A DNA stretch of 64,000 nt from Haplodiscus bocki (taxonomy: Eukaryota): contig OZ296648.1 of assembly GCA_965655095.1 (NCBI GenBank), forward strand, positions 166,160,001 to 166,224,000, written 5' to 3'. A program made the translations under genes and the position numbers. This document shows positions 1-20,370 of the stretch, piece after piece (the first letter of the stretch is position 1; every line of letters begins with the position of its first letter). Below the pieces are notes generated by a model that was not told where the DNA came from, did no database searches, and saw only the letters and a list, made by a program, of their open reading frames with translations.

Positions 1-226
1 GCGAGTGATGAAGTATATCAGATATCACTCGCTAACAGCTACGATTTTTGAAGTAGACATTTTTGTAACAGCCGCCAGCTAGCGATTTGTTTTCCTATTA
101 CGCATTTTTCCCTCGCCTCTTTTAATAACTCAACAATCTTTGCGTGCAGTGAACAGCAGCTCATCTATATAGCAAAATTAAACTTTTCTCATCTTGAAGA
201 AAAATCATCTGGAATTTTTCCTCTTC

Positions 227-271
<45 letters not shown>

Positions 272-500
272 TCATCTCTCTTTTTATTCTCCCTCTCTAC
301 ATCACGAAGAAAAGAAAAAAGGTTAGTGTTCTATAATATTTATTGTTTCTTTAAACTAATTTCAACCTATTGACAAACGTTTCAACCCTGTAACAACTAA
401 CATAATATTTTAACTTATTTATTGCAAAGCGCAAAAAGATTTTTGTTCCTGAGAAAACAAAACCGAGAAATATCATAGGACCCAAAGCAGGGTCGCTATA
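1..500 (+). repeat. 5' LTR (first few bases outside window)
   Basis: Aligns to 12379-12838. Ends ...GGTCGCTATA (decayed TCGCTACA, the inverse of a TGTAGCGA start). Contains a (CT)n tract and the hairpin GCGAGTGAT...ATCACTCGC at 1-32. Confidence 0.92.
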
Positions 501-505
501 GAAAA

Positions 506-519
506 TGGTGACAGGCAGT
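506..519 (+). promoter_or_regulatory. Primer-binding site (PBS)
   Basis: TGGTGACAGGCAGT begins 5 nt after the 5' LTR end. The cognate tRNA is uncertain. Confidence 0.65.
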
Positions 520-2280: not shown

Positions 2281-3385
2281 ATGGATCCTGACGATCAAGC
2301 CCTAAATGTGGCCTCGCAAAAGTCTTCCAGAATGTCTTCTGGTGGCACATTTATGCCTAATTACTCTTGTTTTTTGCTCGCGCCGTTTGATGGCACACCT
2401 GGTTTTGCAGAATGTTTTACTCAATTCTGTTGCCTCTCTTTCTGGTTGGGAAAAACCACCCCTCAGGTGATTTGCGTCTTCAATTCTTTTCTGCCCGCCT
2501 CAGTGGCGACGCTTTGATTTTCTATCTTTCGCTGACTCGACCCCACCAAACTAACATGAATATACTTCTTCGCGCCTTTCGAACTCAGTTTGCTCCTAAT
2601 CAATATGTACTTAAGGCTAAAGTTGAAGATCTCCGTCAACCACCAGCACAAACCGTCCCTGCTTTTTTCCAGAGTGGTGAGATTTAGCCCGCAAAGTAAC
2701 CCCTGTTGAGGCTGTCCGCAGTGAAAATCTCCTGACCGCTTTTATTGCTGGTTTATGCAACCCCACTTTTCAGCGGGATTTTTGCAAAGCGAAAACCGCA
2801 GATGCTGACGCTGGACTGCAAGCAGCAGTAGAAACTTACACTTCTCTTGGAACCGACGATTTAAAAAAGCAAACTTCTGGTGTTAACAATATCAGCACTG
2901 AGACCTCTCTTGACACTTTTACTGAGTTAGTTCTTAGTCGCCGCACAGAAATTCAAGACGCTGCGGCAAATTCAAGACGCTGCGGCAAATTCAAGACGCT
3001 GCGGCAAGTCATCACGTACCGACAGAAATATTTCCCATAACAATCAAAAAGATCGCTCAAGCAGTCGAGTTAGTAACCGATATCGGTGTCCCTCAACAGG
3101 ACCGAGACGCGTTAACACTTTTTCCAACTCTAAAAACCTAGTCAGCCCAACGAGCGGTACACCGCCCGAAACAGCAACAATCAAAAGAAAAACTTCAAAG
3201 TTCGCTTCTCAGACAACTCCAAAAACAACAAGCGAGATCAAATTTCCAGTTCGCAGCGTAGCGATGACGAGAAAGGCAAACATTTTGGCCGCACCAACCA
3301 TTCCAGCCGTGAGTTCAGAGCATGTTGCAATTTTGGCTAAATTGGCCACTTCAGGCACGAATACCGTGCCCGACGCCAAAATTTA
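2281..3385 (+). pseudogene. gag: Gag with two degenerate CCHC zinc knuckles
   Basis: ATG at 2281 (MDPDDQ...), capsid-like fragments (PFDG, LRQPPAQTVPAFF), and at ~3274-3366 GKHFGRTNHSSREF/CCNFG*IGHFRHEY = decayed tandem Cx2Cx4Hx4C. Confidence 0.75.
2949..3007 (+). repeat. 19-bp unit x3 inside gag
   Basis: AAATTCAAGACGCTGCGGC repeated three times; the expansion shifts the frame. Confidence 0.9.
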
Positions 3386-3440
3386 AACTGAAAGCACCCG
3401 CGTAACAGGGAACCCAAAAACCCTCCAAAAAACGGATTTT

Positions 3441-6400
3441 TTGAATTCAGTGATAGATGACAAATGCGTTTTCGTACGAGTTACGGTCTGTGAAATTCCG
3501 TTAGATGCCGTTTGTGACACAGGTGCAAGTGTTTGTCGTTTGAGCCTCAAAGTAATTGTTTGTTTCCCTGCAAAGATACAGTCATTTTTGGAACCATGTT
3601 GTAAACTATTCCTAGCAGCCAATCGGCCCGATTAAAGTAAAAGATGAAGTTACAGTTGCAATGAAACAAGCATCAATGACTTTTTGACACACTTCTTTTG
3701 TTCTTGAAGCTTCTGAAGCTGAGTGTTTGTTAGGTTTTGAATCTTTTGAGACAAAAACGTGTAATCCTCTGTTTTCCGAACTGAATTTACGTTTGATCCG
3801 AGGTACCTCCGCATACTTTTTCCATCGACCCAAACTGGTTCAGTCCAGGCACAACCCAGTCATGGGAGTAGTTGCCAGAGAAACATCCTTCATACATTCC
3901 GGTCATGATGCGATTGTTCTAGGTAAAACTGACCTCGATGCTGACACTTTTTTGGCTAAAGCAGTAATCGTTGAATCTTCACAATAATTCTGCGCCAAAC
4001 TGAATGACTTAGCTTTCAACACTCTTTCCAAACTTCAAGAGGATGCCATACCAGCAAGTATCAATAATCTTGAAGAAGATCGAATGATTTCCAAAGGCTC
4101 AACACTAGGAACATTCTCCATCCTGCAAAACGACGCGTTCGACCAGAACAAGGTAGCCAGTCAATCAAAGCAGATGCCCACCGCAAGCACCAAGTATGAT
4201 CACAAAAGCATCCTCCACAACTCGAAACCAGTCATGAATGGAAATTCCCATGCGAAATTTGCGCAGTTGCTCCACGACTTTTCAGTTTTCTCCAAAGATG
4301 AATGGGACATCGGAAAATGTGATCTTGTGCAACATAGAATTCCAGTTTACCCAAGTTCTAATCCGCTCAAGCTTTCCAATCGCGGGATTCCAATGCATTT
4401 CAAAACAGACTTTCAAGAAACGTTGGACAAATTCCTTGAGCATGAACTAAATCAGCCGCGCCATAGTCCTTACATTGCACCCGCTATGTTTTGCAAAGAA
4501 AAATCCTAAACTGAGATTTGTCAATGGCTATCGGTAGTTGAACAAGTAGAACATTAACTCTTGTTAGCCGACACCATCTATCGAGGGAATCTTTGGCACT
4601 TCGAAGATATTCTTTACTTCTCTACCATTGACGTGTCTTGTGGACTTCATCAACTACCCATGGAAGAAAAAAGTGGAGACTATACAACGTTCAGTACACC
4701 ATTCGGATCATTTAAATGGCTGCCTATGACAATCGGCCCCACCAGCAGGCCAAACACTTTTCAGAGTCTCATGGAAAAGGTACTCGTAGGCGTAACTTGG
4801 AAGTTCAAAATTCTATTTATTTTCGATGATTGCATCTCTTTCTCTCGCACAATCGAAGAAAAACTAGACCGCGTACGTGAACTTTTTCAGAGGTTCAAAG
4901 ACGCCAATCTCAAAATTATTCTAACCAGATTTGTGTTTTTCCGTCAGAAAGTGTCCCTTTTGGGCCATCTCTTGAGCCGTGAAGGCATCCAAGCCGATCC
5001 TGAGAAAACTTCACTGTCAACATAAATCCGGTACAAAAGAACGCTACCGAAATCAAAAGCTATTTGGCCTCTTTTCATACTATAGAAGATATGTGCAAGA
5101 CGTTGTGAAAATAACCCGTCCCTTGCATCAATTGACCGAGAACTCAAAAGATTTCCTGTGGAACTCCGAAACCTAGGAAACTTTTGAAGTTCTAAAGGAA
5201 AAACTCACTTCCACCGCAATAATGGCCTTCCCGAGCATGAGAGACGCTTTCATGTTAAATACTGATGCTAGCCAGCAGTCAATGGGCGCAGTTCTCACTC
5301 AGGTTCAAAATGGTTCAGAACGCGTCATTTGTTACGCATCCAAATCCTTCAACAAAGCTCAGGGACGATATTCCACTACCAAACTTGAACTTTTGGCCAT
5401 TGTGAATTTCACTAGACATTTCAAACGTTACTTGTTAGGAAGGTAATTCCAAATTGCCACTGATCACAGAGATTTGCAGTGGCTTCATGATTTCAAAGAA
5501 CCTGACGGTTTAAAAGGGCTTTGGCTAGAGAAACTAGCAGCTTTTGAGTGAGAAGTTGTGTATCACATTGGAAAAAGTTTGGACACGCGGACTCTATGTC
5601 CGGGATTCCCAGTCACGACGCCACCACGGACTAGGAGAATGCACTTACGCACGGTGCAGAAGCAAAGCACCCAACGCAAAAAAAAACGACGAAGCAAGCA
5701 ACACAGAATGGCCAAACCGTCCTCGCAGGAAAAAGGAAAAAGCGCCAGTTACCCAGCAAAAACGGCACAATATGCCAAAGATGCAACAACAGCATCTCTA
5801 TACGCGAGATATGGAAGAAGAGAGAAGTCAACAAACTTTTTACATCGGGCAGATAGTGTGCCAAACAGAAAATTCAAAGAAATTCGAATTAGTAGAATTG
5901 TGTGGAAATCTATTTGATTCCACAGACTCAAAAGCGCATAGCATTTCATCAGATTTTAAGCTTGCAGCAGGTTTTGCCAAACCTGTTAGGCAAGCGTTCC
6001 CAACCACGTACCCCGAGTTTGGGTCGGAAGCATCGAAAGAAAAAATTTACGCACAGCAAATTTCTCCGGATAGATTTATTTATCACTTGATAGTCAAGCC
6101 CAGTTTTTGGAACAAACCGACGTATAGTTCCCTACGTGCAGCATTGGAAGCCATGTTGCAACACGCGCAGAAACACAAAGTTGATACGATAAGCATACCA
6201 CGACTGTCGACAGGACTCGACAAGTTAATTTGGTTAAAATTGAGAGAAATCATCATAGACGTTTCCCAAAACCCGCCCATAAAAGATACGGTTTATACGC
6301 AACCAGAACAACAACAAATAACAGTCAATCCCATTAGAACACAGAGAGAAACAAAATCAAAAACTAAGACGCAACAAACACAAGAAGACAATCAGTGTCT

Positions 6401-7635
6401 TAGCACCGTTCTTTCAGGGATCAAGAACGAGAATAAACTCCATCAATTGGTCCTTCAAAGCCGGTTAAAAGACATTTCGTTTCTCTGGAACAATTTCGAC
6501 TCCCTCAAAGTCGTAAATGACATCCTGTGCCAAAGTTTTGAGGATTCAGGCACAGCCCCGAGTCACTTACAACAATTCGTTCTAACAACATTGCGACCCA
6601 AAATCTTGGAATCAATTCACAGCTCCACTAAAACTGCTCATCCAAGAATAAAAAAAAATTTGGAAAAGATTTGAGCTAGCCTCTATTGGCCAGGTCATAA
6701 GAAATATGAAGGTGTGTTTGTCTCAAGTTGTCGTGTTTGTCGACAACGTTACAGTCCTGATCAAAAACATAGACACAGCCTTGTCAATTGGCCCCCCAGT
6801 TTCCTTTTTGCCCACATTCATATTGACTTCCTTGGACCACTTCCAGTCTCAAATCGTAACTCATAAATACCAGCACTTGGTGATCACTTGACGAAGTGGT
6901 ATGAAGCAATTCCATTGCCAGATCAGCCAACTGAAATGAGTGCTACCGCACTGATTGAGCACTGGATTAGTCAATTTGGCACTCCCGTAAGCATTTACAT
7001 AGACCAAGGTCTTAATTTTGGGTCTAAAACCTTTCAAAGTCTCCTTGAGTCTCTTCAAATTGATAAAATTTGAACTACATCCTTCCATCCACAATCAAAT
7101 GCCGTGATCGATCGAATGAACAGAACTTTATTGAACATGTCGGCCAAAACCGTTGATGACTTTCAAAGCAATTGGACTCAGCAACTTCCGTATCTGATGA
7201 TGGCATTCCAGTCTTCAGTCCATGAGTCAACAAGTCACACAACCCAGTTTCTTGTTTTTGGCGCAACAATCAACCTCCCCATTGACATCCAGTGTCTCTT
7301 GCGAGAACAACGGAACAAAACCGACGTGCATCACTTTATCAAAACAAAAACGTGCCGACACGCAAAGAGCTCACGAAGCAGCACGCTTCCATCTTCAAGC
7401 TTCTCAACTGCGACGCAACGCTTTGACTAATTCTAAATCGCATGGCCCCCGATACAAGCCAAGTGACAGTGTTGGGTTACATAGCTCCGTCACCCTAAGG
7501 GATTCATTCCAAAGCTTTCATCCCCAAGGAGAGGTCCATTCACAACTGTACAGTGTCTCAACGACGTTAATTATGAAATCAGAAACACAGCGAACAAAAA
7601 AGAGACCATCGTTCATTATGACCGTTTAAAGCCCT
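3441..7635 (+). pseudogene. pol: Pol polyprotein (aspartic protease, RT, RNase H, macrodomain, integrase)
   Basis: PR VCDTGASV (~3510). RT YFSTIDVSCG, TTFSTPFG, IFDDC (~4600-4835). RH NTDASQQSMGAVL, ELLAIV (5222-5446). IN HSSTKTAH...CRVC, HIDFLGP, DQG, DRMNRTL, GPF...VNYEI, VHYDRLKP (6618-7635). Confidence 0.93.
5883..6299 (+). CDS. TARG1/OARD1 (Poa1p-like) macrodomain embedded in Pol between RNase H and integrase
   Basis: GNLF...AHSISSDFKLAAGFA...RFIYHLIVKP...KPTYSSLRAAL...ISIPRLSTGLDKLIW matches the OARD1/TARG1 pattern (GDLF, AHCISxD, YYLITK, MPRIGCGLD). It is in frame with the integrase N-terminus within ORF 5544-6674. Confidence 0.85.
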
Positions 7636-8384
7636 TTGTTCGACGCCCAGAATAACTACAGCTTCCACGGCGTGAATCAAATCTCCCAAGAGTACCGGAA
7701 AGCAAATCGACACGAAAACCGCACTTTGCTAACCACTAACATTGTAGCTATTCTCAAACTTTGTCTGACCAAATTCCACCAACCCGTCGACGCCGAAGTG
7801 CCTCTCCAGCCCCATTTTCGGCAAAGTTTTCCGCTAATATCCCATCCAAGGATCTTCTGCTGCATGTTGAAAACGAGCATCTTTGGTTCCCGGCAGAACC
7901 GCTCTTTGTAGTTCACCTCAAGATTTGTCACAGGTTCCATCGGAAGCACAATATCCAACTGTAATTAATGACACATTTAACCTGTCACGTTTCTCCAAGA
8001 GCATGTTCGTACCACCAGGTTCGCCTTTCTCATCCCTTTCCATTGAAAGTCCCATATCTAACGCGGCGGAAGGTTTAGACCGTTCAACTCCTCCTCAGGC
8101 GTCTGCCAAGCTTGCTATTCAGGCCGTATGTCCGCATCAATTACGTTCAACAACATTACTTCAACGTCTTTCACAACCACTTCACCAATTAGAGAAGTAC
8201 TTGCCCAGCAACTAGAGGTCAGAGAATACAATTCAAAGTAAAAAAAAAACATAGCTCCCTTTAATCAAAGCATGATAAAAAAAAGTGGTCTTCATTTTTG
8301 TTCTCATCAAACGTTTGTTTCACTTGTCTCCAGGTCGTACTCTTCTTTGCCTTTTTTCTGATTTTATTCAGTACCAACGCCGTC

Positions 8385-9009
8385 AATTGTGTCCTTGGCT
8401 AATTTCCATTATCTTCTTGAAATCGTGGTTCTTTATGATCTATTCCAAAGTTACTTTCCAACCAAGTGTGGGCTCCGAGACAGAGGACCCGGTTTTCCAA
8501 CGAGGCGCAGTATTCATCTACGCTTATCAACCCGTCACATCTGAAAGTAACATTAAAAGTAGATTTTTTTTCGCTATTTCATCAACCATAAGCAATCGAC
8601 CCGGCTGGAGCCCTCCGCCTGCACCAGATTGTTTTAAAGGCGCGTCAGAATCTTTACAATACTGGTCAGAAATACCAAGACAATATCAATCCCACCACAG
8701 GCCAAAATTAGCTTACACCCATATTTTGCGTCGTCAACACCAATGGTATGTTAGCAAAGTTGGTAGGTTTAGCTAAGTCAGTCAAATGTGGCGTGAATCT
8801 TCTCTTGAAAGAACAAAAGGCCATTGCAGACGATCACCTTGAACTCCTTCGAGTTGCCGAGTCTTTCGCTCCGCCGCCCACGTAACCGAACGAAGACAAA
8901 GGACAAACGGGACATTCTCGGTAAAGTCGCGTTATTCCTGCATTGATGGCCTTATCTGGAGCAACTGGCCTAATTCTTGGTAAACCATTGGAAGATGCAG
9001 CATGCAGTG

Positions 9010-9041
<32 letters not shown>

Positions 9042-10802
9042 CTCTCGTCAAACTATGCAGCGATACTACAGACTTGAAAGAGCACATTTCAAACCTCATG
9101 GCCCAACAGAGTTTTTTTGCTGAAGCAATGAAAACTGTTCAAACCACCAACGACAGAATGTTTGTCCTGCTTGGCTCGGAGATTTCAAACACACAAGAAA
9201 ATGTCAAGGCGATGAGAGATGTTGTTGAAAACCGTTTTACCGCTATGTCCAAAATTTTAGATCAACTCACTCGTTCTTTGAACTTTTTCGACCACTTGGT
9301 GGTCCATATCAAACACTTTAGCAACCTTGTTTTTGAAGTTGAAAAATACACTTCATATTTGGATCTTGTGTACAATCACCTCGAAGCCTACAGATCACCG
9401 TCCGTTTCTTACAAAACTAATGTTTATTCAGCAGTACCTTCATTATGGCCCGGCTACGTCACTCCTAATTACTTAACACCCATTTGTCCAGCCCAGATTG
9501 TTCATGAACTCACAATGGAAGACGTTTATCGTGGTACGAAACTAACACCAGCCATACAAGTCGGCTACGAAGCAATGTACTACGAAGTACAGATGTTGTT
9601 CGAAGTTTCCATTCTAGCTTGTGGTATCTCTGTCGTACTTGGGATTCCCATGAATTCAGAATGTGCCATATTCAGTATTCTCTGAGCAATTCCACTGTAT
9701 CAGCCCAAAGAGGATGGTTCCACTGCTTCTTTGTAACAGTTCCGTCATGACTATTCAGCTATCGGGACTGATATGTCCCAGTACACCAAACTAGGTGTTG
9801 CTACGTTACAACAGTGTTCTCACATGTACAGAATAAAGCTCTGTCGTTAGAAATTGTCCACCAGCACAGATGTAACCTTATTGTTTCTCACGTCCCTGTT
9901 CTACAATTTAAGTGTTCCTGCTTTTCCAAAAAGTCATTTTGAATCAGTTTTGTTACCCGATGCCCCGCAAGCTTTTTATCTCGCAGATCGTCTTTATCAC
10001 GTCATCTCACGAAAACAGCACTTTCCCATGATGAACGATACCAATTCTCAAGGCACTAGAATGTCCACTATTGACTGTCAAGCGTGTGTCATTCGCCCAG
10101 GTTGCTCGTCGAAACGGACGCTCAACCATGGAGATCTTGTTTTGAACCCGGACATTAATTAGTGTGAAACTCATGCGGAGCCATTTGTGGCCAGAATACA
10201 ACTAACTTCCTGGTTTCAAAAAGTTTTTGAGTCCCTAACACCCACCACCTAGTGCAGAGTTCAACATATATTCTCACAGCGAGGTAGGGAAGTCTGTCTT
10301 TACTAGTATCCGCATGGAACTAGCCGAGTTATGGGAAGCTCACACTATGGATTTTGATAAACCTAAAGAATTCGCTGAGCCCATCTATCAATACTACGCC
10401 TCCTTTCCGCCCGCCGCCAGTAAAGCGCTCGAGGGATATTTGCAGAATAAGAGCGCCTTGTGTTTAGTTTTGTTATCAAAGACCATTTCTTTGAATTCTT
10501 TCAGCATTAGTTTCACGTTATTCAGACGTCAGTGGCAGCAATTTATCGCTCATTCGCGACGCTTCCTTCGCCGTACACAGGGACGATTTATACACGTCGT
10601 TTACCAGCTGGCCGCAGATGATACGCGAGCGACGACTGCATTTCTTTATTTAATCGAAGACGAGTTTTCATCGTTATCCGAATTCGCCAAAGAAGTTCTC
10701 ACACGTCGCAAAGTTGCCACTTGTCCCACTAGCAACGCATCCACAGAACAACCCATTTCTTACCCCGATATCGCTCACACGTACTCCACACCTAATGCTT
10801 GA
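8385..10802 (+). pseudogene. env: Envelope glycoprotein, class I fusion (F-type) like
   Basis: Hydrophobic N-terminus; decayed furin-type site R*SR (8919-8930); fusion peptide VIPALMALSGATGLILG (from 8931); heptad coiled coil (9060-9400); Cys-rich region (~9810-10160); hydrophobic TM-like segment (~10450-10520); cytoplasmic tail. Pyrimidine-rich acceptors at 8333 and 8371. Confidence 0.8.
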
Positions 10803-11261
10803 CCACCGTTATCCTCTCTCCTTCCAACTTAATTTCCTATTTGTTATATATAATATGTAAATTATTCTACCTCCGTCCAGTGCTAATTCACTGAGTTCAA
10901 ATCATCATTTTGTCCTCAGTTTTACACCGAGTGCTTTTTCTTCCGCGTAATTGAAACGCGAGTCTTTCTTTTTCACACCCCAGTTTTTGTCGTATCTAAC
11001 TCACACGACCATTTTTTTTACTGACCAGTGCTTGACACTGAAGTTTTTTTTTCTCAACGCTTAGTCGAAGATTCCCGCTCGGAGGCAACACGTTGCCGCC
11101 GTGTATTTGAGTTAATTCAAGAGGTTTTTTTCCCTACGCCTGTGCATAAGAATCTTAGCGCCTTTCTTTTCTTTTCTGTGTAATTTTAACGAACCTTTGC
11201 GAGTTTTTCTTATTTCAGGTCTCACTCCCGATCCCGAGTTCTCACCACCAGTGGTCAGTTT

Positions 11262-12154
11262 ATGGATGTAGCTTGTGGTGACACCGTGTGTATTGTGGAC
11301 CCAACTCCGAACCAAGTTGTTCGCGTCGTACCTTCAACGAACAGCGTTAAGATTAACCCTGCTTTCGACAGCCGTCGCCGCTCGTTCTTTGTTAGCTTTC
11401 TAGCGCTTTCGGCCCCACCTAAGCCAGTGACCGAGTTAATTGTTAACACTGAGCTTATCCAAAACTGTAATTTGTGTTCCCTCGTGCCGCTCCCTGTTCT
11501 ACCAGAGGTCATGGACGTCAGCACTAACACAACCCCGCCTTTGACCTCCACTGTCGGTTCCATCACTGACTCGGTGGAGCATCGAGAATTTTCAGCGCTT
11601 CTTCGAGAAGCAGACGAATTTGAGCGTCTCGAAGAGCAATTAAATGAGCGCTCTAATCAACTGGATCGATAACAAGGACGTTTAGCCCACATGACAACCA
11701 GGGTCAATCAATTGCTCCTTGAAAATGAAACCATGCGGCGCGAACCCCCAGTCCCAACTGTAGGGCATGCACAAAACCAGCAAAATCGCTAAAGACAACG
11801 ACTGCGCCCTCAGCATGCTCTTCGAGATCCTGTCTAGTTTCACTGAATCTTTTGACCGCCTCACCGCCGAAGACTTAAAACTTCCTTCGCCTAAACCCTC
11901 AAACACACCCGCAAATAATTCGTCAACAGCACCTAGAAATTCAAAGATTGACACACCCTGACCAGCACACCGAATGCCCGTCCGAGGTACCAACGTTCTT
12001 AACAACCCTCTACAGCATACTTTCTTCCAACCGCAGGCTCACCATCCTGGATTGCTGCGGCATGAGAGCTGTACGCAATCAGGAACGACATCAATGCAGC
12101 TGCTGTTTCCCCATGAACAACATCGACACAAGGATTATTGGCAATAGCCTCTAA
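11262..12154 (+). pseudogene. Extra (fourth) ORF between env and 3' LTR: coiled coil plus Cys-rich C-terminus, unknown function
   Basis: Consecutive ORF pieces 11262-11672, a readthrough coiled coil to ~11790, 11767-11961 and 11948-12154 (DCCG...CSCC). Splice acceptor TTTTTCTTATTTCAG ends at 11218. Confidence 0.55.
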
Positions 12155-12378
12155 TAGATGCGGAATGCATTTTTTTAAAGAAGGAAGCCGCATGACAAAC
12201 AAATTAAAACTCTTTATTTTTTTCATTTTTGATTTAGTACGTGACCTTTGTAAAATTTGTACTCAATTTTTACTTCAGTTCCTCTAGGCTCTCTAGGCTG
12301 GTACTAGTCAACCTCTCGCTATCATAGTCAGAGTAAGTTGTAGAAAATTCGTTCCCCGTAGCTGTTCATTGTAGAAAA

Positions 12379-12838
12379 CGAGTGATGAAGTATATCAGAT
12401 ATCACTCGCTAACAGCTACGATCTTTGAAGTAGACATTTTTGTAACAGCCGCCAGCTAGCGATTTCTTTTCCCATAACACATTTTTCCCTCGTCTCTTAT
12501 TAATCTGAACAATCTTTTTGTGCAGTAAAGAGCAGCTCATTTACATTCCAAAATTAAACTTTTCTCTTTTTGAGGAAAAATAATCTGGAATTTCTCCTCT
12601 TCTCCTATCTATCTCTCTCTCTCTTTTTTCTCCCTCTCTACATCACGAAAAAAAAACAAAATTTTGGTGTTTTGTAATATTTACTGTTTGTATAAACTTA
12701 TTTCAACCTATTCATAGTTGTTTTAACCCTGTAATAACTAACATAAAATTTCAATTTTTTTTGCAAAGCGCAAAAAGATTTTTCTTCCTGCGATAAAAAA
12801 ACTACAGGAATCATAGCACCCAAAGCAGGGTCGCTCTA
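12379..12838 (+). repeat. 3' LTR
   Basis: Direct repeat of 2-500; ends GGTCGCTCTA. Confidence 0.92.
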
Positions 12839-14870
12839 AAATAATCACAATGCTTTTCTTCCAAGTACTGTTATACAGCTTCCTATTTTTCAAAATTTAG
12901 TAAAGGTAACAAAAACGTCTTTCTCGTCCAGATACCGACATACTGTACAACCACGATAACATAATTACAAGTGAAATCTTTGTTCGTAGTATCGCATCAT
13001 GACTAACGTTCGAACATTAGAGAAGGCGTTTTTTAATAATTTTGATTTAACGAAAATTTAAAACTAACTTCGAGAAGTTTCGGCTTAAAATGAAAAGCCC
13101 CGAATTTATCAAATATTGGATAAATACGGAAAATGATTAGTGCAGTTTGTTTATTTGGTATATCAACTTGATTTACGAGCTACTATAGATTACGACGGAA
13201 AAAAAGTTGACTTGCCAAGCAGAAGATTCGGAGCTGCTGTAACAATTATTGGAACACAAACAAGAGAACCTGGTGACCCAGAAAATGCGAAAAATGTTAA
13301 AGCTGAAAACATAGACTATACGACGGCAAAGCTGAAGATTCCATTGGAGATTAAAAATTTGCCAACTTTACGCCGACGTGACAAAATTTGGAGGTTACTC
13401 GATTAGAATCGCACAAATTAATGATCAAATTAAAGGAGAATTAAATTTTCGAATTTGCCGAAATTCTACTATCAGCGCACTGGTCAGTGGGTCTGAAATG
13501 TCGGATATGCGCTGTTTTCCTATTGGTGGCATGAAAAAACAGCATGATGCCTTTTTAGAGTCATTTGGCAAAACTGAAAAATTCATAACATCACTCACTC
13601 GCTCACCGTCAACAACTTACTCTCTTTTCTTTCCTGCTCTTAAAATATTGAACTTTGCTCTTCTCTTTGCTCTTCTTAACCTCCGAAAATTTGCTCAGTC
13701 AAATTTTGATTTAGCAGCAAAACATCTTTCATCGGAATTATTCTGAGTCAAATTCTGACTTCGCCGCAATACGCTCATCAGCGAAAAATTTCTATGTCGA
13801 ATTATGACCTAGCCGCAAAAACATCAAATTTTCTGATAGACCGCCCTTCCTCACCTCCTCACGCCAACCAAACGATCCTAAAGTAAACTTTGCTATCTGC
13901 GGCGCTCTCCTATTTGACGATCACTCAATTGCGCCACAACCGGGTATGAATACCCCGTACACTCTCATTATGTTCATTCGCTCTCTGTAGTTAAATAGCC
14001 TACTTCATGGAAGCTAAACTCTCTTCTACTTCACCCTCATCTTGATTTCACAGCAAAATCCTCTTTGTTGAAATTATTAGAAGTCAGAATTCCCATCATC
14101 GAAATTATTTTGATACAAATTTCCTAATCATCCAAATTATTCTAAAACAAAACTTGCCTTGGCCTCAAGTTCTGATCTGCAGGGCCGACCTACTTGATTT
14201 CCTCAACAAATGATTCAGTTGGCCTTCGCCCAAAATTGAAAGGACACGTGACTATCGGGGTATAAATACCGAGTGCACGTCCATAATGTTCACTAGGTCG
14301 CTACAATTCACCTAATCAAATCCACGAGGCGAAACTCTTTTGGACCTCCTCCTCAATTCCTAACTTTTCTTACTTGAATGTTCTTATCACTTCTCAGCGA
14401 GCGAAAAGCCAATATTCACGGTCAACCAACACCCATCTGAAGAACCCGAACTTCAACTCATTTCTTCAACTTCAATGATGGTATCAGTGAGTCTTTCATT
14501 TCAATTACCAGTAAAATAAACCTCGCTAGAAAATCTTAACAGATTCTTGCATTTCAAATGCAGTGAGTTAATAATCTGCTGAATTTTCGAAAATTGTGAA
14601 ATTGAAAGATAAACCCTCTCAACAAATTCGGCCGTGAACTACCACGTTTGAGATAAAGGGATATAGGAGAAATAGCTCAGATACCGTGAAACACGAGTGA
14701 CACTGAGTCTTAGATAGAACCTAAAAAGGTAAAACAATTTAAACCCCTCCAATAAATCCGAAGACTACGTCACGGTATGGGAGAAAAGGGGAACTGAGAT
14801 CTCCCGACCAGACCAGTTACTATAATATGCAAGTACTGAGTCGTTCAATAAAAAACTAAAATACATGAAG

Positions 14871-18965: not shown

Positions 18966-20370
18966 CGGATGCGAGACAAACCCGCCGATTTTAGAGTGGG
19001 ACAAAACAGCCGATTTTGAAAACGGGACAAAATCGCCGATTTTGATAATGAGACAAAACCGCCGATTTTAAAGTGGGACAAAACCGCCGATTTGTTATAA
19101 TACAGATCGCTAGTCTTTGCAAAGATAAAAGTTGTTCAAGATAAAAGCGTCTTGGCCTAATTACGGATAATTAGCAATTAAATTACCATTATACTAAAGA
19201 AATAATTCTACTCCAAAATACCAAACCCAAAATAACCAATCCCAAAATACCGAAGGTCATACATGAAACTTTTTGACGAAAATTTGAATTTTTGTAAGAA
19301 GTGAAGGTTAAAAATCTGGAGGGCCAGGAACAAAAAATTATGAAAATTGATAAACCTAATATCTGTAAATTAAAGTTTCTGTCACCTAAGGAGTTCCACT
19401 CCAAAATACCCAAGCCCGAAATACCCAAGCCCGAAATACCCAATCCAAACAGCGATACCAATTAAATAATTAGAAGCATCTTGAAATCAAAAGTACCCAA
19501 AATACTTCAATACTAGGGTATTTTAGGACTTGGGTATTTTGGGACTTTGGGTTTGGGTATTTTGGGTTTGGGTATTTTGGGCTTGGGTATTTTGAGTTTG
19601 GGAATTTCGTCCTGCCACCCACCTAAGGAAATGCCAATGAAACTGAAAAACTACTACAAAAACAAACAATTTTAATTTTTGCGTCATATAATTTTCTGAT
19701 TTTTCTTGATACTCAATTGCATGAACCGAAAATATCCGAAAAGACCATTTCTGAATTTTTGGCAATGGTGTTTTAGTTTTTTCAGGAGAAATTTTAGGAT
19801 CTTTCCGCCCCACAGTAGAAGCTCAAAATTTAACTCCCCCCCCAGGCAGAAGCAAACTCGTCTCTGATTGGCTAAAATTCACCCGCGCGTGAGTTAAAAC
19901 ATTACGCCGCTTATTGTTTCGCATATCCATTATGGTGTGTGTGTGTGTGTGTGGGGGGGGGGGGAGGTTAAATCAGTGGGGGGGATTAACAGAAAAGATC
20001 CAAATTTTAATTATTCAGAGGAGTTCGGTACACAAAAGATAGGGGGCGGGTACCACAAATTTAGGTTAAATGCAAGCGAGGGTTTCAATAAAATCTTTGG
20101 TGTTGGCATTCTCGAAAAATTATTAGCCGCAAAAAGTGAAGGAAATTGCATTAAGTTCCTGGCATCTCATTTGGTAATATGTTTGGTAATATAATTGCTA
20201 ATTATCGATAATTAGGCCAAGACGCTTTTATCAGTGAAACAATTATGATAGCAATTTGTTCTCTTTTGCAAAATCGGCGGTTTCGTCTCATTTTCGGAAT
20301 CGGCGGTTTTGTCCCGTTTCCAAAATCGGCGATTTTGTCTCATTTAAAATCGGCTCTTTTGTCCTGCCCC
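18966..20370. mobile_element. Non-autonomous long-TIR (Mutator/foldback-like) DNA transposon with 8-bp TSD
   Basis: ~200-230-bp TIRs containing ~24-bp GACAAAACCGCCGATTT subrepeats and ATAAAAGCGTCTTGGCCTAATT or its inverse. TSD TTATTTTA (18958-18965) / CTATTTTA (20371-20378). Empty site at 21417-21424. Confidence 0.85.
19393..19619. mobile_element. Small foldback element nested in the TIR element
   Basis: CCCAAAATAC-type repeats face inverted GTATTTTGGG repeats. Flanked by direct repeat CACCTAAGGA (19383-19392, 19620-19629). Confidence 0.6.

What the first reader, a model, noticed from the sequence alone, without database searches (positions are those of the whole stretch)
5883..6299. TARG1/OARD1-type macrodomain built into Pol of an env-bearing Gypsy element
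Seen: a complete macrodomain between RNase H and integrase. Residues equivalent to the TARG1 catalytic Lys (LIVK) and Asp (STGLD) are retained, and it sits in the longest unbroken ORF (376 codons) of a decayed element. Established: TARG1/DarG-class macrodomains remove ADP-ribose from acidic residues and from thymidine in DNA; RNA viruses use macrodomains to counter PARP immunity. Inference: a retrovirus-like element carrying an anti-ADP-ribosylation module with its integrase, implying host PARP or DNA-ADP-ribosylation restriction of retroelements. Macrodomains are known in some retrotransposons, so novelty lies in the combination with env and a fourth ORF.
Basis: partly seen in the sequence, partly recalled or inferred. 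Interest (0 to 1): 0.78.

Follow-up and report, generated by a model that had tools for sequence, protein, structure and literature searches.

The report
ADP-ribose eraser inside retroelement Pol
A large, recently active group of envelope-carrying jumping genes in this animal genome builds a conserved enzyme domain that strips ADP-ribose tags into its polymerase protein, which suggests that the host uses such tags against them.

Summary
Confirmed and extended. Window 5883-6299 encodes a complete TARG1/OARD1-class macrodomain (human TARG1 is the only PDB match, E 3e-19). It lies between RNase H and integrase in a decayed Ty3/Gypsy element of about 13 kb. Both catalytic residues (Lys84, Asp125 equivalents) are kept, but Thr83 and Gly121 are not. 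It is no one-off: all 9 env-bearing families read in this genome carry it at this position, some copies have LTR pairs 99.8-100% identical, and dN/dS is 0.08, close to integrase. The env is probably F-type. The host has at least 9 ZNFX1/UPF1-like helicase-PARP fusions, which are candidate writers. Unrelated retroelements and an insect RNA virus carry TARG1 domains at other positions. Most likely the domain is packaged with Gag-Pol, stays on the integrase N-terminus and erases host ADP-ribose from the element's RNA or cDNA. Activity, substrate and restriction are inferred, not shown. The long open frame in this copy is not evidence of selection. New variant of a known kind.

The parts
1..503 (+). 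5' LTR (starts about 190 bases left of the window; about 690 bp)
   Evidence: blastn of the left neighbour stretch against the 3' LTR, 82% identical with gaps; 13.7% mismatch over 650 ungapped columns
506..513 (+). putative primer-binding site (TGGTGACA), the same in families A and B
   Evidence: matching tRNA not identified
2281..3391 (+). gag, broken in this copy (Retrotrans_gag; zinc knuckle in open relatives)
   Evidence: tblastn; Pfam
3382..3388 (+). -1 frameshift heptamer TTTAAAC at the gag stop
   Evidence: in gag register, pol in the -1 frame and a hairpin downstream in 6 of 6 open copies of families A and B; same heptamer in the window
3382..8248 (+). pol (PR-RT-RNase H-macrodomain-integrase-tail); 17 stops and 12 frameshifts in this copy
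5883..6299 (+). TARG1/OARD1-class macrodomain; Lys84 equivalent at 6096-6098, Asp125 equivalent at 6219-6221
6383..7640 (+). integrase (N-terminal extension, H2C2, core, C-terminal domain); limits approximate
8378..10802 (+). env, probably F-type class I fusogen (furin-like site, hydrophobic peptide, coiled coil, C-terminal hydrophobic segment); broken here
   Evidence: ESM Atlas nearest clusters Baculo_F/Fusion_gly 0.95-0.96, recognition below threshold; 2 of 108 homologues carry PF12259
11193..12130 (+). ORF4: small N-terminal domain, coiled coil, J-domain (HPD at 11954-11962), Cys motif; broken here
   Evidence: Pfam DnaJ 33 bits over a cut-off of 27.8 in an open relative; window fragment E 0.007; alignment
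12177..12191 (+). polypurine tract
12192..12841 (+). 3' LTR

Best explanation
The macrodomain is a working TARG1-class ADP-ribosyl eraser that the element carries into its own particle. It is made only as part of Gag-Pol by a -1 frameshift (sequence signal shown). It is probably cut from RNase H but left on the integrase N-terminus (inferred from protease-site-like motifs). It would thus be present through reverse transcription and in the pre-integration complex, in the Pol slot where some lentiviruses carry dUTPase (recalled). There it would remove ADP-ribose that host PARPs put on the element's nucleic acid: base-linked marks on the RNA template that should block reverse transcription, or caps on cDNA ends that should block integration (inferred). 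The host's expanded helicase-PARP fusions are the candidate writers. This window's copy is a dead insertion; the function belongs to the clade.
For: Class and catalytic pair. Fixed position in 9 of 9 env-bearing families read, 2 of them found through env and not through the domain. Young copies have LTR pairs 99.8-100% identical in 5 of 6 pairs read. Purifying selection in 25 open family-B copies: macro dN/dS 0.08, against RT 0.03, RNase H 0.03, IN core 0.05, IN C-domain 0.09, linkers 0.3-0.6 and tail 0.39. Frameshift signal. A hydrophobic-Asn-x-Val/Ile motif follows RNase H in 6 of 7 families, is also at the protease N-terminus, and is absent from the macro-integrase linker in those 7. Human PARP10/15 put ADP-ribose on RNA guanine N1 and uracil N3; TARG1 removes it while ARH3, MACROD2 and PARG do not (10.64898/2026.03.31.715305). 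TARG1 also clears nucleic-acid ends (PMC8053099, PMC7050489). Host: 9 of 12 long PARP frames checked are SF1 helicase-PARP fusions of two subfamilies. TARG1 domains recur in distant retroelements and an RNA virus.
Against: No activity, expression or substrate data. Family A, which includes the window, has Val for Thr83 (Thr in 142 of 158 homologues) and Ser for Gly121 (Gly in 133 of 158), and fails the published TARG1 pattern. The RNA-binding basic patch is only modestly better kept in retroelement rows (2.1 of 3; 27 rows, not independent) than in cellular rows (1.4; 23 rows), and net charge is the same (5.5 against 5.6). No sign of diversifying selection. Cellular TARG1 domains are often fused to DNA ligase III/BRCT or PNKP, which points to ordinary repair. 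The helicase-PARPs are linked to the element only by sharing a genome. That the motif is a protease site is recalled, and family A lacks it at the usual place.
Confidence: 0.45

Rival explanations
1. Integration helper, not counter-defence: the domain clears the ADP-ribose that PARP1/2/3-type repair enzymes place on any DNA end or gap, easing cDNA-end use and repair of the integration intermediate.
For: Predicted to stay on integrase. In 5 distant full-length Pol proteins the domain follows integrase directly. Cellular TARG1-type domains are fused to DNA ligase III, BRCT and PNKP. PARP3 caps DNA ends and TARG1 reverses it.
Against: Most Gypsy elements integrate without it (recalled; the errantivirus survey PMC13524379 does not mention it). 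An RNA virus with no DNA stage carries the same class (P0124).
Confidence: 0.22
2. Protein-directed eraser like coronavirus Mac1: removes Glu/Asp-linked ADP-ribose from element proteins or host immune factors.
For: TARG1 acts on acidic residues. The clade has other accessory genes that look aimed at host proteins: a J-domain ORF4, and short RING-like ORFs in family B.
Against: It is made at frameshift-level abundance inside Pol and not as a free accessory ORF. TARG1 is at least ten times more efficient on base-modified RNA than on protein. The captured class is TARG1 and not MacroD.
Confidence: 0.15
3. One reading: the domain binds poly(ADP-ribose) or ADP-ribosylated chromatin and steers integration, as chromodomains do in chromoviruses.
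For: Fused to integrase. TARG1 accumulates at damage sites in a PAR-dependent way. Family A has changes around the ligand loop.
Against: Lys84 and Asp125 equivalents are kept in all 7 families tabulated from the protein collection and in the two env-found families; a pure reader need not keep them. Insertion-site bias was not tested.
Confidence: 0.13
4. Passenger or host-domesticated piece: a one-off captured host exon, or this copy kept open for a host function.
For: The domain lies in the longest break-free run of this copy (P=0.047).
Against: Present in 9 of 9 families, with dN/dS 0.08. The domains branch apart from the host's stand-alone TARG1-like gene. In this copy macro dN/dS against a young relative (0.35) equals RNase H and integrase (0.31).
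Confidence: 0.03

Closest known systems
Human TARG1/OARD1/C6orf130 (PDB 4j5q, 4j5r, 2l8r), ALC1-like macrodomain class
   Same: Full-length match (E 3e-19); His32, Ser35, Lys84, Pro118, Gly123, Leu124, Asp125 and Trp129 equivalents kept.
   Different: Embedded in a retroelement polyprotein; Thr83, Gly121, Cys33 and Cys122 replaced in family A; activity untested.
'Ancient errantiviruses': env-bearing Ty3/Gypsy elements with F-type env (Chary and Hayashi, PMC13524379)
   Same: gag-pol-env order, LTRs, many near-identical copies, furin site plus hydrophobic peptide, small domain between RNase H and the integrase zinc finger.
   Different: The main text holds no 'macro', 'DnaJ' or 'J-domain', and its bridge-region survey lists only RNase H-like and mini domains. 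Here a macrodomain is inserted in that bridge and a J-domain ORF4 follows env.
Fish epsilon-like endogenous retroviruses with macro-domain ORFs (Basta 2009, seen only through the review PMC4977317)
   Same: A retroelement with env that has captured a macrodomain.
   Different: Retroviridae, described as additional ORFs; class and position not stated in the passage seen. Here: a Gypsy clade, in frame inside Pol, fixed in 9 families.
DarG antitoxin and RNA-virus Mac1 macrodomains
   Same: Mobile or parasitic elements that use a macrodomain against ADP-ribosylation.
   Different: No DarG or MacroD/Mac1 structure matched at E<=0.1. DarG lacks the Asp125 partner, which is kept here.
dUTPase between RNase H and integrase in non-primate lentiviruses (recalled, not tested)
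   Same: A nucleic-acid-protecting enzyme in the same Pol slot, packaged with Gag-Pol.
   Different: Unrelated enzyme; analogy only.

Membership tests
TARG1/OARD1 (ALC1-like) macrodomain | Sequence closest to TARG1 over the whole domain | tested here: met
   Only TARG1 chains match in the PDB, E 3e-19; fish OARD1 finds these elements at E about 1e-32
TARG1/OARD1 (ALC1-like) macrodomain | Catalytic Lys84 and Asp125 | tested here: met
TARG1/OARD1 (ALC1-like) macrodomain | Published pattern TKx(30,35)Px[IL]GxGxD (PMC6397177) | tested here: not met
   Window and family A have Val for Thr and Ser for the first Gly; family B fails only at [IL]; families C, D and G meet it. The change is shared with a sister family, so it is inherited and not decay
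TARG1/OARD1 (ALC1-like) macrodomain | Macrodomain fold by structure | not tested
   No model of the domain was obtained
TARG1/OARD1 (ALC1-like) macrodomain | Hydrolysis of ADP-ribose adducts | not testable with these tools
   needs an assay
DarG antitoxin | Match to DarG structures, no Asp125, DarT partner | tested here: not met
   No DarG hit; Asp kept; no toxin domain in the ORFs scanned
Ty3/Gypsy (Metaviridae) LTR element | LTRs, PBS/PPT, order PR-RT-RH-IN, Gypsy-type gag, RNase H and integrase profiles | tested here: met
Ty3/Gypsy (Metaviridae) LTR element | Placement in an RT tree with named reference clades | not tested
   The tree held no named references
F-type errantivirus env | Furin site, fusion peptide, transmembrane segment, F-protein homology | tested here: inconclusive
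   Motifs visible; Atlas 0.95-0.96 with low recognition; PF12259 on 2 of 108 homologues; no direct Pfam F hit; single-sequence model unusable
J-domain (Hsp40-type) protein, ORF4 | DnaJ profile and HPD motif | tested here: met
   Pfam over cut-off in family A; 4 of 5 families hit at E<=0.01; HPD in 5 of 5 aligned plus 2 more families

The most novel reading that the evidence does not exclude
This host restricts retroelements by ADP-ribosylating their RNA with an expanded set of ZNFX1/UPF1-like helicase-PARP fusions, and the clade's Pol-embedded TARG1 domain is the matching antidote. That would be an animal counterpart of the bacterial DarT/DarG and phage-eraser conflict, acting on a retroelement genome, and the repeated capture of TARG1 by unrelated retroelements would mean the defence is widespread.
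Probability: 0.2. Interest if true: 0.88.

Novelty: new variant of a known kind. Interest (0 to 1): 0.66.

Why it matters
Whether ADP-ribosylation is used against retroelements, and whether the recently reported RNA-base ADP-ribose mark has a defensive role, are open questions (the discussion seen leaves the mark's function open). A clade that has kept the one eraser class reported to remove that mark, under enzyme-like constraint, in a genome rich in helicase-PARP fusions, gives a candidate writer-eraser pair that can be tested with isolated domains. It also shows that invertebrate Gypsy elements can be 'complex', with Pol add-ons and accessory genes (J-domain, RING-like) that a recent large survey did not describe.

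Tried and rejected
One-off insertion: rejected. Domestication of this copy: no signal. Recent capture from the host's own TARG1-like gene: not supported, as that gene branches with the other group (140 columns, modest support). Structure of the macrodomain: none obtained, so the fold rests on sequence alone. Single-sequence model of env: pLDDT 35, not searched further. PDB searches with env gave nothing significant that bears on its type (a 'fusion protein' at E 0.04 only). ESM Atlas had no usable hit for ORF4. The 159-row macrodomain tree did not finish its careful search and is mostly unresolved; the RT tree had unsettled bootstraps and two very long rows. The catfish LINE-macro proteins (P0250, P0251) were not checked and may be chimeric gene models. 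Basic-patch comparison: weak and non-independent. Earlier-findings look-ups by sequence and by place were empty. Literature searches that found no description of this architecture. The library lacks most subscription papers and Repbase/GyDB entries, so absence from print is not established. The supplements of the bioRxiv preprint on RNA-base ADP-ribosylation and the Basta 2009 paper itself were not seen.

Full report
OBSERVATION. Window 5883-6299 (+) is an open 139-residue frame. Among all PDB sequences only human TARG1/C6orf130 matches at E<=0.1 (5 sequences, E 3e-19, residues 8-139), and Pfam Macro passes its cut-off. The alignment places LIVK on TARG1 Lys84 and GLD on Asp125, the catalytic pair named in PMC6397177 and 10.64898/2026.03.31.715305 (passages). 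Against 158 related domains, Lys is present in 155 and Asp in 154. The window differs from the majority at Thr83 (Val; Thr in 142), Gly121 (Ser; Gly in 133) and Cys33 (Ser; Cys in 140), so it fails the published pattern TKx(30,35)Px[IL]GxGxD. The Val and Ser are shared with young copies and with a sister family, so they are lineage features and not decay. No structural model of the domain was obtained; the class rests on sequence.

THE ELEMENT. The window holds one decayed element of about 13 kb: 5' LTR (starting about 190 bases left of the window, ending at 503), gag, pol, env, ORF4 and 3' LTR 12192-12841. Its LTRs differ at 13.7% of 650 columns, and Pol has 17 stops and 12 frameshifts. The break-free run around the domain (329 codons) has P=0.047 under random breaks, and macro dN/dS against a young relative (0.35) equals RNase H and integrase (0.31). 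A naturally open relative reads gag with zinc knuckle; PR-RT-RNase H-Macro-H2C2-rve-p58C; a 797-codon env; and a 321-codon ORF4 with a DnaJ domain over cut-off. Six of six open copies read have TTTAAAC in gag register at the gag stop, pol in the -1 frame and a hairpin behind it. Env shows a furin-like site, a hydrophobic peptide and a C-terminal hydrophobic segment. Its nearest Atlas clusters are Baculo_F/Fusion_gly (0.95-0.96, recognition under threshold) and 2 of 108 homologues carry PF12259, but there is no direct profile hit: F-type is likely, not proven.

FAMILY-WIDE. Twelve copies have an identical macrodomain 85% like the window's. I read nine families (A, B, G-K, and L and M, the last two found through env). 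All 9 have the domain between RNase H and integrase and an env behind it. Five of six LTR pairs read are 99.8-100% identical; the sixth was cut by a gap. In 25 family-B copies chosen for open Pol, dN/dS is 0.08 for the macrodomain (0.09 for variants shared by two or more copies), 0.03 RT, 0.03 RNase H, 0.05 IN core, 0.09 IN C-domain, 0.3-0.6 linkers and 0.39 tail. Between families A and B, synonymous sites are saturated while the domain keeps 51% identity. ORF4 has the HPD motif in 7 families. It is undetermined in family G (an N-run in one copy, a disruption in the other) and replaced by short RING-like ORFs in family B.

ORIGIN AND SPREAD. The host has two adjacent TARG1-like genes. In a 38-row tree, six of the seven families included form a supported group with the window (97/87), family B lies beside them in a weaker group (86/95), and the host gene that could be included falls on the other side. 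The capture is therefore old; 140 columns limit the resolution. A profile search found 4,367 representatives at E<=0.001; I scanned the 69 of the best 150 that are at least 200 aa long. Distant retroelements (RT-RNase H 32-47% identical) also carry TARG1 domains: after integrase (P0111, P0142, P0151, P0248, P0258), in the same slot (P0249), or beside the protease (P0104). P0249 and P0258 are RT sisters with different placements, and their domains group away from this clade: at least two captures or moves. An insect RNA virus polyprotein has one too. Most close database hits are unnamed ENA proteins, and two tested match this genome at 100%, so the clade's host range is unresolved. Two env homologues reach only 78% and 55% here, so relatives exist elsewhere, with unknown macro status. 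An earlier unchecked note (e1-7470572) reports a different, bacterial-type macrodomain in another Gypsy family; I did not test it.

MECHANISM. Shown from sequence: in-frame position in Pol, a frameshift signal, catalytic residues and purifying selection. Inferred: packaging with Gag-Pol, and cleavage just after RNase H, where 6 of 7 families have a hydrophobic-Asn-x-Val/Ile motif that is also seen at the protease N-terminus and is missing from the macro-integrase linker. That this motif is a protease site is recalled, and family A lacks it at the usual place. The domain would then ride on integrase. Why this class? In the preprint 10.64898/2026.03.31.715305 (abstract, sections 7 and 9, passages; supplements not seen) PARP10 and PARP15 modify RNA guanine N1 and uracil N3; TARG1 removes the mark and ARH3, MACROD2 and PARG do not. 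These positions are base-pairing faces, so the mark should stop reverse transcriptase (inference). TARG1 also clears ADP-ribose from DNA and RNA ends (PMC8053099, PMC7050489; passages). The host has 22 PARP-domain matches; of 12 long frames fetched, 9 are SF1 helicase-PARP fusions, 4 with a ZNFX1 domain, in two subfamilies. They are plausible RNA-directed writers, linked to the element only by sharing a genome. Against this reading: no activity or expression data; family A's loop changes; only a slight excess of RNA-patch basic residues (2.1 against 1.4 of 3, equal net charge); and frequent fusion of cellular TARG1 domains to ligase III/BRCT and PNKP, which favours a repair-helper role. I put nucleic-acid counter-defence at 0.45, integration helper at 0.22, protein-directed eraser at 0.15, tether at 0.13 and passenger at 0.03.

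COMPARISON WITH WHAT IS KNOWN. Env-bearing Gypsy elements with F-type env are widespread in animals (PMC13524379: abstract, first parts of sections 5 and 6, sections 7 and 8, word searches of the text and 7 supplements). That paper surveys the RNase H-integrase bridge and has no mention of a macro or DnaJ domain. Macro-domain ORFs are reported in fish epsilon-like retroviruses (one passage of review PMC4977317 citing Basta 2009; the original was not seen). Captured enzyme ORFs in rotifer LTR elements are reported too (PMC5408684, passages; no macro). 10.1101/2021.11.30.470311 (passages) was not relevant. Nine searches found no account of a TARG1 domain inside Gypsy Pol, of a J-domain ORF4, or of the helicase-PARPs; the library misses subscription papers and repeat databases. 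The thing works like a viral ADP-ribose eraser, is a TARG1-class domain by sequence and catalytic pair though not by the strict pattern, and is not a DarG.

VERDICT. Observation confirmed; interpretation partly supported. A real, selected, clade-wide feature, best ranked as a new variant of a known kind, with a bold and directly testable extension (helicase-PARP writer against TARG1 eraser, probability 0.2). Interest 0.66.

Noticed in passing
window 11193-12130; L034:8863-9825, L096, L097, L099, L102, L115, L117: ORF4 is a conserved accessory gene: small N-terminal domain, coiled coil, J-domain with invariant HPD, then a Cys-x2-Cys motif. It is present in 7 families at about 25-45% identity and is a likely Hsp70 co-chaperone. 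One paper search found no description in LTR elements.
   Followed up: partly
L103-L111 (G000 C12, C11, C2, C5, C3, C155): At least 9 long single-frame ZNFX1/UPF1-like SF1 helicase-PARP fusions in two subfamilies, one with an H-Y-E triad and one with H-Y-Met/Val. One paper search found nothing on them.
   Followed up: partly
L067:254-2369, L077:284-2192: Family B lacks the J-domain in the 3 copies read. It has short Cys-rich RING-like ORFs (weak Pfam hits, below cut-off) and a stub resembling the ORF4 N-terminus downstream of env; its LTRs are about 1.6 kb.
   Followed up: partly
L101:6344-7327 and 8592-9815 (-): Two neighbouring host TARG1-like genes; the first has the canonical motifs but none of the three RNA-patch basic residues.
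   Followed up: partly
G000:C10:69550982-69586829: About 14 tandem copies of the family-A ORF4 J-domain region at a spacing of about 2.7 kb.
   Followed up: no
P0124, P0233, P0103, P0137, P0114, P0152: TARG1-type domains at the N-terminus of the Diabrotica undecimpunctata virus 1 polyprotein, and fused to DNA ligase III/BRCT, PNKP or NADAR in cellular proteins.
   Followed up: no
window 18973-19609: Short tandem and inverted repeat arrays outside the element.
   Followed up: no
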